From Escherichia coli (GTDB taxonomy: Bacteria > Pseudomonadota > Gammaproteobacteria > Enterobacterales > Enterobacteriaceae), in NCBI RefSeq assembly GCF_044324785.1, contig NZ_CP172127.1: DNA of 64,000 nucleotides, one strand, 5' to 3'. This document shows positions 6,001-9,000 of the stretch, in pieces; within the stretch, counting starts at the first letter, position 1; every line of letters starts with the position of its first letter. Position numbers: made by a program.

Positions 6001-9000
6001 AGGACAAACGCACATGGCGCAAATCTTTCCTGTTCTTGTTCGCTTACCGCATTTTTGCGTTGTTTTTTCCTGGATGAGGATAATTTCTTTAATGATTTGT
6101 CAGTCATCGTAGATACCTGTAACCCTGTGCGCCACAGTTCACCGCACCACGGCGCTGGTGATGGTTACTCCTGCTCTTTGGCCTTCCGGCGCTGTTCATA
6201 TTTTAATTTGCGTCCACAGGCATCTAAGACCCATGCGGAAAAATTAGCACTAGGATTAGTTAATTTTTCTTGTTCAACACTGGCATCAATCCCATCTATA
6301 AGCTCGTGCGGGAATCGAATATTTTTCTTTGCTGATTTGTTGTTTGTGTTTCCGCTAGACATTGGTACACCTCACTTAAATGGATTTGATGGGCGCACAC
6401 AATACAGCAAAAAAAGTGAGAAGTTAAGTATTGACATGTGCGCACACATGATTTTAATCTGTGCGCACAGTTTGGGTTGCATTGCTCAAATTAAGCAACG
6501 CCCCGCAGTGCTCGCAACACATGCAGGGCGTCTAACCACCAACGATAGAAAGCGTATCGAGGTAGCTATGTTAAATCATACCACACACCCGCAAGGGCGG
6601 GACTCGCACAACCTGAATAAATACATCTGGCGTTTTATCGCCCTGAGCACCGCACAACCACGCGTAATACACATCGAGGCCGCCAGCGAACAGGAAGCCC
6701 GTCAGCAATCCCCGGCTGGCTGCGTGATGGTATTTACTGCCCGCATCCGTCAGGGGGAATACTATGCGTGATGAACGATTTATTCTTCTGGAGCAAAAAT
6801 TCAGTGAAGCGCCAAAAAATGAAATTGATGCTCTTTTGCATATCGCGAATATGCTAAAAGTAGCAACGTTCCTTATAGTTTCGAATCTGGAGCATGAAAC
6901 GGCGTTAGATATACTGAACAGTGCTGTCGATTATTCTGAATATATTGCCGAGGATAAATACAGGCAATTACCAGATTTGTTAGCCCATAAATATAAAGAA
7001 GAACCTCACACCGGGAAATAAACATGAAGAAGATTAAATTTACTGGCTTAAATGCCAGCGGACAGACTCACCCGAAAATCAGGATCGGGGATATTTTCCG
7101 GGATAAATATGGTGACAGCGTGGTTATTAATTCCGTGTATGAACGGCACATTACATACCGCCGCGCAGGGTACGACTATGACTGTGTGATGCCCGTTCAT
7201 CAGTTCCGGCGTGATTTTTCACTGGTATGTGCAGTACCACGCAGTAAGCCCACCAGTAAAGAGAAAGCACGGGCAAATATTCAGGTAATAAAGAACATGA
7301 TTAACGCATTCAGGGGCAAGAAATGAAACGCGCACCGAATTTAAAGCACCAGCCGAAAGACAAAATGACGGAGGTGATTATCTTTGCGGGTAGTGATGCC
7401 TGGGCACATGCGAAAGAGTGGAGCGAATGGGCCGGAAAGCATATTGCGGCAGATGATACACATCCAGTTATTCTTGGACCGGAACAACTGGCGAGTCTGG
7501 CAGACACGCAAATCATCGACAAAGGGCGCTATTACGTGCGCGTTTATCGTGCTGGTGAAATATCAGAGCAGCACCTTACACAGATAGCGACACTGCTTGC
7601 AGTGGCGGGTGTGAAGGAGGCGCGTTGCTACCGCAGCTTTGTTGATCAGCAGCCGGAGGACTGGACACCGCGCATGGCTGGACTGAAGGATGATGCGGAA
7701 CGCGGTAACAGTCTGGTGATCAACCTTCCGGCGAAGACAAATTTCACCGGAAATTATGATGACGAATTAAAGCCTCGTGTTGAAAGTCGCGTCGATGGTG
7801 TTTTCTGGGTAACGCCCAAAGTGGACAAGCAGTCAGGCGAAATTATCCGGCCTGAGACGTGGTTATGTTCTCCGCTTGAACTACTGGGAACAGGAACAAT
7901 CGGCAAAGAGCATTACCGCGTGATGCGCTGGAAAAAACCAGCAAACCATGAGGTCATTACAATGGCGGTCCCGTGCGGAGGCATTGGTGACCGTGACGGC
8001 TGGCGGTTGCTGAAAGACCACGGCCTTAACGTGACGACCAACGGCAAATACAGGGCTATCCTGGCTGACTGGATGCAGTTAAGCGGAAACCATGAGGAAT
8101 GGCAGTTAAGCACAACAACGGGGTGGCATTTTGGTGCGTACATCATGCCGGATGGTTCGATCATCGGTGAATCAGAGAAACCCATCCTGTTTACCGGAAA
8201 AACTGCCGCTGTTAATGGCTATTCCGTGGCGGGAACAGCGGAGGGCTGGCGCGATACCGTGGCACGGCTGGCTGGTGGTAATCCGTCCATGATGCTGGGT
8301 GTGGCGGTATCGCTATCTGCACCATTAATCGGGCTGGTGGGTGCTGACGGCTTCGGGGTTCATCTTTTTGAGCAATCATCAGCAGGTAAAACCACCACAC
8401 AGAACATTGCATCAAGTTTATGGGGAGAGCCGGACGCGCAACGGCTGACCTGGTACGGAACGGCGTTAGGTATCGCCAACGAGGCCGAAGCACATAATGA
8501 CGGGCTGTTACCCCTGGATGAAATAGGCCAGGCCGGAAACGCACGGGAGGTGTCCACGTCAGCCTATACGCTGTTTAACGGTTCCGGGAAATTACAGGGG
8601 GCGAAGGACGGCGGCAACAGGGAGATAAAACACTGGCGCACGGTGGCAATCAGCACCGGAGAAATGGACGTTGAAACATTCCTCAAAACGGAAGGGATAA
8701 AAATTAAAGCGGGGCAGCTTGTCCGTCTGCTTAACGTACCGATGGAAAAGGCCTCGCAGTTTCACGAATACAGCACCGGAAAGGCGCACGCAGACGCGTT
8801 AAAAGATGCCTGGACAGAAAATCACGGGGCGGCAGGTCGTGAGTGGGTTAAATGGCTGGCAGGCCACCAGCAGGAGGCAAAGGACGCGGTAAGGGCATGT
8901 CGCGAGCGGTGGCGCAACCTGATACCGGAGAGCTACGGCGAGCAGGTTCACCGTGTGGGGGAAAGATTCGCCGTACTGGAGGCCGCGCTTGTGCTTTCCG

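What the first reader, a model, noticed from the sequence alone, without database searches (positions are those of the whole stretch)
6392..6470. Perfect palindromic operators (TGTGCGCACA) overlapping a promoter in a divergent control region
Two perfect 10-bp palindromes (6437-6446 and 6460-6469, the second extendable to the 12-bp CTGTGCGCACAG) and a degenerate third copy (6392-6400) lie 23 bp apart. The first sits in the spacer of a TTGACA-N16/17-TTTAAT promoter reading toward the replication genes, and all lie upstream of the divergently transcribed small RHH-like genes. This looks like the lysogeny/derepression switch of the element.
Basis: seen in the sequence. Interest (0 to 1): 0.5.

Follow-up and report, generated by a model that had tools for sequence, protein, structure and literature searches.

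The report
Repressor binding sites in satellite island
Three copies of a short palindrome flank back-to-back promoters in a 19-kb phage-satellite island of E. coli, and comparison with about 100 related islands indicates that they are binding sites of the small neighbouring YlcI protein, which probably keeps the island's replication genes switched off.

Summary
TGTGCGCACA occurs exactly at 6437-6446 and 6460-6469, and with one mismatch at 6390-6399. No dinucleotide shuffle of the window gave such a pair.

The sites lie between the leftward YlcI/YnfO (DUF3950) gene at 6165-6362 and a rightward operon running from an Icd-like gene to a DUF927 primase. The island is 19.2 kb, PICI-like, and integrated at glyU.

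Across about 100 related loci from eight or more genera the layout is constant. One site abuts the leftward -10, one fills the spacer after a TTGAC(A/G) -35, and one lies at or after the rightward -10. The motif itself changes with the YlcI allele, giving 19 classes. It does not follow the downstream gene.

E. coli and Rahnella share the same YlcI N-terminal arm. Their operators match at 29 of 30 bases, while the flanking DNA is only 58-65% identical.

Best reading: an autoregulated ribbon-helix-helix repressor with allele-specific operators. This is ordinary in mechanism, but it gives a first functional inference for DUF3950 and a candidate repressor for Gram-negative PICIs. No binding or repression has been measured.

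The parts
6437..6446 (.). O1: perfect 10-bp palindrome TGTGCGCACA. It starts immediately after the rightward -35 and fills the promoter spacer.
   Evidence: In all 19 allele classes a class-specific site starts at the last base of the -35.
6459..6470 (.). O2: perfect 12-bp palindrome CTGTGCGCACAG (10-bp core 6460-6469). It overlaps the last 2 bp of the rightward -10 and the predicted transcription start.
   Evidence: O1 against the same class's O2 averages 1.05 mismatches of 11, against 4.10 for other classes.
6390..6399 (.). O3: degenerate copy TGGGCGCACA. It abuts and overlaps the leftward (ylcI) -10 and +1. In Rahnella it is the perfect TGTGCGCACA.
   Evidence: O3 of the same class averages 2.7 mismatches, against 4.2 for other classes.
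6431..6436 (+). Rightward promoter -35, TTGACA.
   Evidence: TTGAC(A/G), or TTGAA, is kept at the same place in almost all classes.
6455..6460 (+). Rightward promoter -10, TAATCT (18-bp spacer).
   Evidence: A TAnnnT hexamer sits at 17-18 bp in every class. Rahnella has CATACT here. Inferred; no transcription start data.
6399..6404 (-). Leftward (ylcI) promoter -10, TATTGT on the minus strand. Other classes have TATACT at the same position next to O3.
   Evidence: the conserved CAGTATAC / CAATAC next to O3. Inferred.
6422..6427 (-). Candidate leftward -35, TTAACT (17-bp spacer). Weak and not conserved. A conserved A-tract (6409-6416) lies between it and the -10.
   Evidence: Read from the sequence. 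Low confidence.
6165..6362 (-). ylcI: 65-aa YlcI/YnfO (DUF3950) protein with an RHH fold. Proposed repressor.
5910..6107 (-). Second 65-aa ORF, probably co-transcribed with ylcI. Function unknown. Not needed for the operator pattern.
   Evidence: phrog_21027, unknown function. No Pfam match. Absent in L002, L007 and L008, which keep the operators.
5800..5819 (-). Terminator-like hairpin followed by a T-run, at the end of the leftward ylcI-orf2 unit.
   Evidence: A pattern match only.
6498..6531 (+). Conserved leader hairpin, followed by TCTAACCACC. It lies between O2 and the Icd-like gene and is shared by all operator classes.
   Evidence: 9 of 12 pairs show changes on both sides; 0 of 500 shuffles reach the observed values. 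No Rfam family matches.
6543..6559 (+). Second small leader hairpin (CGATA...TATCG) just before the Shine-Dalgarno sequence GAGG.
   Evidence: Variants CGTTA/TAACG, ACGTAA/TTACG and CATTA/TAATG appear in relatives. Fold. Judged by eye and not counted formally.
6568..6771 (+). Icd-like gene, the first gene of the rightward operon.
   Evidence: NF033153, 68.6 bits.
6764..9449 (+). Rest of the rightward operon: a hypothetical gene, DUF4222, and a DUF927/P4-type primase-helicase. SSB and ProQ/FinO genes follow.
1544..1562 (+). attL: the 3' end of tRNA-Gly(CCC). It is repeated at 20689-20707 (attR), which bounds a 19.2-kb island.

Best explanation
The three palindromes are the operators of YlcI. 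YlcI is a 65-aa ribbon-helix-helix (RHH) protein encoded immediately to their left.

Proposed mechanism: dimers of YlcI bind each two-fold symmetric site through the N-terminal arm and beta-ribbon. Residues 12, 14 and 16 face the DNA. R16 is invariant, while residues 12 and 14 set the specificity.

O1 fills the spacer next to the -35 and O2 covers the -10 and +1. Together they would occlude the rightward promoter, which drives the Icd-like gene, DUF4222, the DUF927 primase and SSB. This would keep the integrated satellite island from replicating. O3 overlaps the -10 and +1 of the leftward ylcI promoter, so YlcI would limit its own synthesis.

Shown by sequence and comparison: the sites, their fixed positions relative to conserved promoter hexamers, the way the motif changes together with the YlcI allele, and the RHH fold.

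Inferred: binding itself, the sign of regulation, dimer stoichiometry, and what relieves repression. Candidates for relief are helper-induced AlpA-driven read-through from the co-directional alpA-antA-bro operon, which converges on ylcI, or a helper or island anti-repressor.
For: 1. Not chance: 0 of 300 shuffles give an identical pair of 10-bp palindromes within 60 bp.

2. Constant architecture with a variable motif. In 8 E. coli loci, 80 IMG/VR loci, 16 loci from other genera and 4 further E. coli strains, the order is always ylcI, site next to the leftward -10, A-tract, TTGAC -35, site, TAnnnT -10, site, conserved leader hairpin. The repeated motif differs between 19 YlcI classes. O1 against the same class's O2 averages 1.05 mismatches of 11, against 4.10 across classes (Mann-Whitney p = 1e-13). 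For O3 the figures are 2.7 against 4.2 (p = 2e-6).

3. Swap logic. The same Icd-like gene start occurs with at least 7 operator types. One YlcI arm (NNKSAKKNIRFP) keeps ATGTGCGCACAC in front of 5 or more different downstream genes. L002 keeps the operators without the second small gene.

4. The same arm gives the same operator in different genera. KSAKKNIRFP occurs in Escherichia and Rahnella; RSTTKG(I/V)RFP occurs in Serratia and Brenneria. Between E. coli and Rahnella the operators match at 29 of 30 bases, while other intergenic positions match at 51 of 78 and 45 of 78 (Fisher p = 3.5e-4 and 2.5e-5).

6. Geometry. A site in the -35/-10 spacer and a site over the -10 and +1 are classic positions for repression.
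Against: There is no experimental evidence of binding or repression for any YlcI/YnfO protein, and no paper on their function was found.

The operator and ylcI are only about 30-100 bp apart, so part of their co-variation reflects linkage. The argument therefore rests on three separate sites changing together and on the cross-genus footprint.

The O1-O2 distance varies from 22 to 37 bp between classes, so cooperative contacts cannot be a conserved feature.

Functional relatives such as EcCIMP1 lack ylcI, and AlpA is the known master regulator. The module may therefore be an accessory layer rather than the switch.

Lambda-type phages carry a YlcI homologue next to cos, and the one copy inspected here (ylcI of the DLP12 prophage) lacks this architecture. 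Repression is therefore not necessarily the family's only role.
Confidence: 0.75

Rival explanations
1. YlcI does bind the palindromes, but its main job is not to repress the replication operon. It could act as an activator or architectural protein, or as a centromere- or packaging-site-binding RHH protein like omega, ParG or TraM. Promoter overlap would then be secondary.
For: Lambda and lambdoid phages keep a 41-43% identical homologue right next to cos. RHH proteins such as omega, ParG and TraM appear among the fold matches. P22 Mnt both represses one promoter and stimulates the divergent one.
Against: In all 19 classes one site starts at the last base of the -35, and another lies at or shortly after the -10 of the same promoter. 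Such fixed register with promoter hexamers is expected for occlusion, not for a centromere. There are only three sites rather than an array. The upstream region of ylcI in the DLP12 prophage has no comparable repeated motif.
Confidence: 0.1
2. A different protein reads the palindromes. Candidates are the Icd-like protein (which PHROGs labels 'transcriptional repressor'), the second 65-aa protein, AlpA, or a host or helper factor.
For: phrog_6196 and phrog_1743 carry the annotation 'transcriptional repressor' for the Icd-like protein. AlpA is the proven regulator of related islands (PMC6092414).
Against: The Icd-like protein and its leader stay about 90% identical across at least 7 operator types. 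The second small gene is missing in loci with unchanged operators. A host factor could not track 19 different motifs. Only the N-terminal arm of YlcI changes together with the motif.
Confidence: 0.06
3. The palindromes act as nucleic-acid structures rather than protein sites. They could form a hairpin terminator for read-through from the alpA operon, or a 5' stem in the mRNA.
For: The simple scan lists CATGTGCGCACACATG followed by ATTTTAAT (6435-6450) as terminator-like.
Against: O1 and O3 lie upstream of the predicted rightward start. The same motif recurs three times, in either orientation, on both sides of the divergent promoters. In several classes the motif is not self-complementary (GTGTATTTCAC, GTGCGATTCAC), so it could not form a hairpin.
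Confidence: 0.03
4. The palindromes are a chance clustering of a GC-rich palindrome with no function.
For: The total number of matches with at most 1 mismatch in the window (3) is within the shuffle expectation of 2.1.
Against: All three matches fall within 80 bp. No shuffle in 300 gave such a pair. The sites are conserved at 29 of 30 bases between Escherichia and Rahnella, while flanking DNA has diverged.
Confidence: 0.01

Closest known systems
Phage P22 immI region (Mnt and Arc RHH repressors at the divergent Pant/Pmnt promoters). Recalled from established knowledge, not searched here.
   Different: No detectable sequence homology. There is one repressor gene rather than two. There are three separate 10-12-bp sites rather than one 21-bp operator per protein. 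The controlled operon starts with an Icd-like gene and a primase, not ant.
Stl/Rpr master repressors of Gram-positive PICIs (SaPIs)
   Same: A repressor gene transcribed divergently from the excision and replication operon of a phage satellite, with the control region between them (PMC6092414).
   Different: As recalled from the literature and not checked here, Stl/Rpr are larger, unrelated helix-turn-helix proteins. Their derepression by helper-phage proteins is proven. Here the fold is RHH and the inducer is unknown. [quoted passage not shown]
RNA immunity of P4 (CI RNA) and P1 (C4 RNA-icd-ant), detected by Rfam C4 and isrK in some Gram-negative PICIs (PMC10111431)
   Same: It occupies the same genomic slot: the 'Bro zone' between alpA and the replication zone, directly upstream of an Icd-like gene. 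A conserved structured leader lies in front of icd.
   Different: No C4 or isrK match in the window, even at E up to 10. Control here appears to be by protein and operator at the promoter, not by antisense RNA acting on the transcript.
CopG, omega and antitoxin-type RHH autoregulators of plasmids
   Different: YlcI has a long lysine- and asparagine-rich N-terminal arm and an invariant basic tail (QRRKAKEQE) in the E. coli alleles. It has no toxin partner. Its sequence family is DUF3950, which has no assigned function.
Immunity regions of lambdoid phages (imm-lambda, imm434, imm21)
   Same: Exchangeable repressor-plus-operator cassettes with many specificities, set in otherwise near-identical flanks. 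Here at least 19 classes sit next to a leader and Icd-like gene that are about 90% identical.
   Different: The repressor fold is RHH rather than helix-turn-helix. There is no Cro-like second repressor and no RecA-cleavable domain.

Membership tests
YlcI/YnfO family (NCBIfam NF041551; Pfam DUF3950, PF13132) | Profile match above the curated cutoff | tested here: met
   NF041551: 59 bits against a cutoff of 30, E = 3.5e-16. PF13132: E = 1.6e-6. RefSeq annotates WP_000094456 as a YlcI/YnfO family protein.
Ribbon-helix-helix (Arc/MetJ/CopG) DNA-binding superfamily | Strand-helix-helix fold of about 45 residues | tested here: met
Ribbon-helix-helix (Arc/MetJ/CopG) DNA-binding superfamily | N-terminal strand with alternating core-facing hydrophobic and DNA-facing polar residues | tested here: met
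   Positions 13, 15 and 17 are hydrophobic or conserved. Positions 12 and 14 vary with the operator. R16 and P18 are invariant.
Ribbon-helix-helix (Arc/MetJ/CopG) DNA-binding superfamily | Significant sequence-profile match to a named RHH family | tested here: inconclusive
   The only such hit is HicB_lk_antitox at E = 0.25. A PDB profile search gave no RHH hit.
Ribbon-helix-helix (Arc/MetJ/CopG) DNA-binding superfamily | Intertwined dimer that inserts a two-stranded sheet into the major groove of repeated sites | not testable with these tools
   Only monomer prediction is available. The two-fold symmetry of the sites is consistent with this feature.
Promoter-occluding repressor and operator pair | Sites overlap the core promoter elements of the regulated promoter | tested here: met
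   O1 abuts the -35 and fills the spacer. O2 overlaps the -10 and +1. O3 overlaps the leftward -10. The positions hold in 19 classes. The promoters are predicted, not mapped.
Promoter-occluding repressor and operator pair | Operator sequence co-varies with the DNA-reading residues of the repressor | tested here: met
Promoter-occluding repressor and operator pair | Demonstrated binding and repression | not testable with these tools
   Needs gel-shift or footprint assays and reporter fusions.
Gram-negative PICI (phage-inducible chromosomal island) | Island of about 10-20 kb at an att site, with int, alpA, a Bro/Ant zone, primase replication genes, no full set of virion genes, and captured helper late genes | tested here: met
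   19-bp att repeats at 1544-1562 and 20689-20707. Gene content. Same gene set as EcCIMP1 (PMC11773190) and the same zone order as in PMC10111431.
Gram-negative PICI (phage-inducible chromosomal island) | Induction and transfer by a helper phage | not testable with these tools
   No helper phage identified. The same ylcI module is present in vB_KppS-Ant, a 16.5-kb genome that encodes capsid, portal and terminase proteins; its record gives the source as 'induced prophage'.
P4/P1-type RNA immunity (Rfam C4 RF01695, isrK RF01394) | Covariance-model match upstream of icd | tested here: not met
   No hit at gathering threshold in the whole window. No hit at E up to 10 in 5700-7400.
P4-like satellite in the strict sense | psu, sid, delta and epsilon genes alongside int, alpA and alpha | tested here: not met
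   None of these is annotated or found between 1.5 and 20.7 kb. Only the integrase, alpA and a P4-type primase are shared.

The most novel reading that the evidence does not exclude
YlcI-type RHH proteins are the missing master repressors of a large group of Gram-negative phage satellites (PICIs, capsid-forming PICIs and P4-like islands). About a quarter of complete E. coli genomes match the Icd-like region, and every locus sampled had a divergent ylcI, including Nissle 1917 and O157:H7. The at least 19 repressor-operator specificities would define satellite immunity groups. Induction would work by removal of YlcI, either by convergent AlpA-driven transcription or by a helper protein. One possible helper protein is the orphan YlcI homologue that lambda-type phages keep next to cos, which could poison the obligate RHH dimer by forming mixed dimers.
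Probability: 0.15. Interest if true: 0.75.

Novelty: new member of a known kind. Interest (0 to 1): 0.5.

Why it matters
DUF3950 (YlcI/YnfO) has no assigned function, although it is present in E. coli K-12 prophages, in phage lambda and in many enterobacterial genomes.

For Gram-negative PICIs the field knows an activator (AlpA), and states that the existence of a repressor is unclear (PMC6092414).

This locus and its relatives give a concrete, cheaply testable candidate repressor. They also supply natural specificity variants: 19 pairs of N-terminal arm and operator. These amount to a draft recognition code for an RHH family.

They may also explain how closely related satellites coexist or exclude each other.

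The mechanism itself, a small autoregulated repressor occluding a promoter, is textbook.

Tried and rejected
1. A fourth operator, CTGTGCGCCACAG at 6126-6138 between the two small genes. The identical sequence occurs in class B (L003) and class C (L006) loci, whose operators differ. It therefore travels with the second gene and is not a class A site.

2. It lacks the A at position 2, and the equivalent position in Rahnella is GAAACA. The hexamer at an 18-bp spacer is conserved as TAnnnT.

3. A known RNA family in the leader (C4, isrK, others). None was found, even at E up to 10. The best match was Plasmid_R1162 at 18 bits, E = 3.7, which is noise.

4. The Icd-like protein as the repressor, as the PHROG label suggests. 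Rejected by the swap table.

5. A CRP-like or other host-factor site. Rejected because the motif changes with the YlcI allele.

6. A PDB sequence search with the YlcI profile gave only one spurious hit, a ribosomal protein at E = 0.4.

It was repeated with the narrower alignment A3.

8. The upstream region of ylcI in the DLP12 prophage of K-12, checked for the same triple-site layout. It is not present; that gene faces cos and nohD.

9. PADLOC on the large cargo genes gave no defence-system hit. They are captured virion proteins.

10. A literature search for YlcI, YnfO or DUF3950 function, and for an RHH repressor in PICIs, found nothing relevant.
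Full report
**1. What is in the sequence**

The window matches E. coli strain SCU-105 at 100% over the 1.4-kb query. tRNA-Gly(CCC), glyU, is at 1488-1561. Its last 19 bases (1544-1562) are repeated at 20689-20707, which bounds a 19.2-kb island.

The island's gene order is as follows.
- Integrase.
- An int-alpA RNA (Rfam RF02996, 2985-3052).
- An AlpA-like helix-turn-helix gene (4094-4291).
- antA (4367-5191).
- BRO-N (5184-5741).
- Two minus-strand 65-aa genes (5910-6107 and 6165-6362).
- On the plus strand: an Icd-like gene (6568-6771), a hypothetical gene, DUF4222, a DUF927/P4-type primase (7323-9449), SSB, ProQ/FinO and a PerC pseudogene.
- Three large captured virion proteins (11682-19029; phrog_992 and phrog_684).

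This is the zone order described for Gram-negative PICIs: integration, Bro, replication and late zones (PMC10111431). The gene set matches the experimentally mobilised PICI EcCIMP1 (PMC11773190).

**2. The observation**

TGTGCGCACA is exact at 6437-6446 (O1) and 6460-6469 (O2). O2 extends to the 12-bp CTGTGCGCACAG at 6459-6470. A one-mismatch copy, TGGGCGCACA, is at 6390-6399 (O3).

These are the only matches with at most 1 mismatch in 64 kb. An identical pair of perfect 10-bp palindromes within 60 bp was seen in 0 of 300 dinucleotide shuffles.

TTGACA (6431-6436) abuts O1.

**3. Comparative evidence**

I collected the following sets of related loci.
- 7 more E. coli loci.
- 80 IMG/VR loci.
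- 16 loci from Serratia, Rahnella, Pectobacterium, Klebsiella, Xenorhabdus, Brenneria, Affinibrenneria and Symbiopectobacterium.
- 4 further E. coli strains chosen only because they share the Icd leader: Nissle 1917, an O157:H7 strain, DA61218 and B1172.

Every locus has a divergent ylcI and the same layout, in this order.
- The ylcI start codon.
- A site next to a minus-strand TATACT-like -10.
- An A-tract.
- A TTGAC(A/G) -35.
- A site starting at the last base of the -35.
- A TAnnnT hexamer at 17-18 bp.
- A site at, or up to about 12 bp after, that hexamer.
- A conserved leader hairpin and the downstream gene.

The repeated motif differs between YlcI alleles.

| YlcI N-terminal arm | Where seen | Motif |
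|---|---|---|
| KSAKKNIRFP | window, Rahnella | TGTGCGCACA |
| KSQTVAARVP | | GTGTTYAACAC |
| KSKRIDARVP | | GTGTCCGACAC |
| KSQMTTVRIP | | GTGTATTTCAC |
| KSQKLQARAP | O157:H7 | CTGGAATCCAG / GTGGATTCCAC |
| KSQALKARVP | | GTGGGCCAC |
| RSTTKG(I/V)RFP | Serratia, Brenneria | GGTGTATATGCACC |
| KSAQKKIRFP | Klebsiella, vB_KppS-Ant | GTGTACCCCCAC |
| KSGYKGIRFP | Xenorhabdus | GTGTTTAAACAC |
| KSKKLEARVP | B1172 | GTGGCTGACAC |

Across 19 classes, the O1 11-mer matches the same class's O2 region with a mean of 1.05 mismatches, against 4.10 for other classes (Mann-Whitney p = 1e-13). For O3 the figures are 2.7 against 4.2 (p = 2e-6).

The low off-diagonal values belong to arms that are nearly the same. 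AKKN and TKKG both have a GCGC centre. The short and long proteins with arm QQLNARFP share ATTCAC.

**4. Which protein tracks the motif**

The downstream Icd-like gene and its leader are about 90% identical across at least 7 operator types. Conversely, one YlcI arm keeps its operator in front of five or more different downstream genes. The second small gene is absent in L002, L007 and L008 with no change in the pattern. Only YlcI, and within it mainly residues 11-14, changes with the motif.

Linkage alone cannot explain three separate sites changing together. It also cannot explain the footprint between E. coli and Rahnella. There YlcI is about 70-74% identical, the operators match at 29 of 30 bases, and other intergenic positions match at 51 of 78 and 45 of 78 (Fisher p = 3.5e-4 and 2.5e-5).

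**5. The protein**

YlcI matches NF041551 (59 bits against a cutoff of 30) and DUF3950. No paper on its function was found.

In the alignments, positions 13, 15 and 17 are hydrophobic, positions 12 and 14 are polar and allele-specific, and R16 and P18 are invariant. That is the alternation expected for the DNA-reading strand of this fold.

Sequence profiles alone do not reach a named RHH family.

**6. Promoters**

The tool scan lists no promoter here, because TTTAAT lacks the A at position 2. Across classes the conserved -10 is a TAnnnT hexamer at 17-18 bp. In the window it is TAATCT at 6455-6460, and in Rahnella it is CATACT.

The predicted rightward start is therefore near 6466-6468, inside O2.

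On the other strand, TATTGT (6404 down to 6399; TATACT in most classes) abuts O3. This gives a start near 6392 and a leader of about 30 nt with GAGGTG before the ylcI ATG.

A terminator-like hairpin at 5819-5800 on the minus strand would end the ylcI-orf2 unit. All of these elements are predictions.

**7. Mechanism proposed**

YlcI dimers on O1 and O2 occlude the rightward promoter, which drives the Icd-like gene, the primase and SSB. YlcI on O3 limits its own promoter.

The O1-O2 spacing varies from 22 to 37 bp between classes, so each site seems to be positioned relative to promoter elements rather than to the other sites.

How repression is lifted is unknown. No intrinsic terminator was found on the plus strand between bro (which ends at 5741) and the control region. 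AlpA-activated transcription could therefore run antisense through ylcI. This is inference only.

**8. Relation to what is known**

The module works like P22 Mnt/Arc at Pant/Pmnt, like plasmid CopG or omega autoregulators, and, in its genomic role, like Stl/Rpr of Gram-positive PICIs. It is not a member of the P4/P1 RNA-immunity type, since there is no C4 or isrK match.

For Gram-negative PICIs the literature says that a global repressor is 'unclear' and that AlpA activates (PMC6092414). EcCIMP1 lacks ylcI, so the module is not universal.

It is common, however.
- The Icd-like region matches in 1352 of 5426 complete E. coli genomes.
- All 11 sampled loci had a divergent ylcI.
- The class A cassette itself is in 68 genomes.
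- The same module sits unannotated in vB_KppS-Ant (LR881103). This is a 16.5-kb genome with capsid, portal and terminase genes, and its record gives the source as 'induced prophage'.

**9. Verdict**

The mechanism is of a known kind. The value lies in a first functional inference for DUF3950 and in a testable repressor candidate, with a natural series of specificity variants, for Gram-negative satellites. Confidence is 0.75 that YlcI binds these sites and represses the rightward promoter.

Noticed in passing
window 6498-6531 and 6543-6559: A structured leader lies between O2 and the Icd-like gene. It is a hairpin, then the invariant TCTAACCACC, then a second small hairpin before the Shine-Dalgarno sequence. 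It is shared by all operator classes and by eight or more genera, with compensatory changes (9 of 12 pairs; 0 of 500 shuffles). No Rfam family matches. It occupies the slot where P1 and P4 have C4 or CI RNA. Its role is unknown.
   Followed up: partly
window 5908-5927 and 6163-6182: The 3' ends of both small genes share a 20-nt repeat (85% identical) that encodes AKEQE followed by the stop codon. The tail QRRKAKEQE is nearly invariant in the E. coli YlcI classes (last residues vary: QE, SE, QK), while the rest of the protein is only 34-42% identical. This looks like a recombination joint for swapping cassettes.
   Followed up: partly
window 6126-6138: CTGTGCGCCACAG resembles O2 with one extra central base. 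It is identical in loci whose operators are of other classes, so it belongs to the second-gene module. The resemblance to the class A operator is unexplained.
   Followed up: yes
L024 (IMGVR_UViG_2874945390_000001) and L017: Natural rearrangements between the two direct operator copies. In L024, O1 and O2 are fused by a 23-bp deletion that removes the -10. In L017 the unit from O1 to the -10 is duplicated.
   Followed up: no
window 5581-6771; L004 1947-2351; L006 1796-2272; L007 1892-2263; L108 6997-7971: Over-long ORFs run through the control region. In several RefSeq and GenBank records they are annotated as extended 'Icd-like' or hypothetical proteins. In vB_KppS-Ant such an ORF hides the unannotated ylcI gene.
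   Followed up: partly
window 11682-19343: The late zone of the island carries three large genes (843, 686 and 918 aa). They match phage virion, ejection or transglycosylase protein families (phrog_992, 1145, 684). No PADLOC defence model matches. They resemble the captured ejection proteins of EcCIMP1.
   Followed up: partly
window 10597-11013: A 138-aa ORF after ProQ/FinO matches an anti-repressor Ant family (phrog_63). It is a third Ant/Bro-type gene in the island.
   Followed up: no
L107 (K-12 DLP12 prophage, 580251-580445) and lambda-type phages: Lambda, 434, HK629 and many Stx phages encode a 41-43% identical YlcI homologue. In DLP12 it lies next to cos and diverges from nohD. The DLP12 copy, the only one inspected, has no triple-site layout. 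Its function there is unknown.
   Followed up: partly
window 20940-48000: Directly after attR lies the ETT2 type III secretion island (sctC, sctN, eprH and related genes, ygeH). It contains several pseudogenes and an IS3 element.
   Followed up: no
window 59239-59320 and 59436-59523: The OmrA and OmrB small RNAs (Rfam RF00079, 86 and 97 bits), in their usual chromosomal place.
   Followed up: no
window 6469-6492: A class-specific 5' stem-loop immediately follows O2 (GTTTGGG...CTCAAAT). In other classes it includes the right half of O2 (CACCTTG...CAAGGTG). It may be an mRNA 5'-end stabiliser.
   Followed up: no
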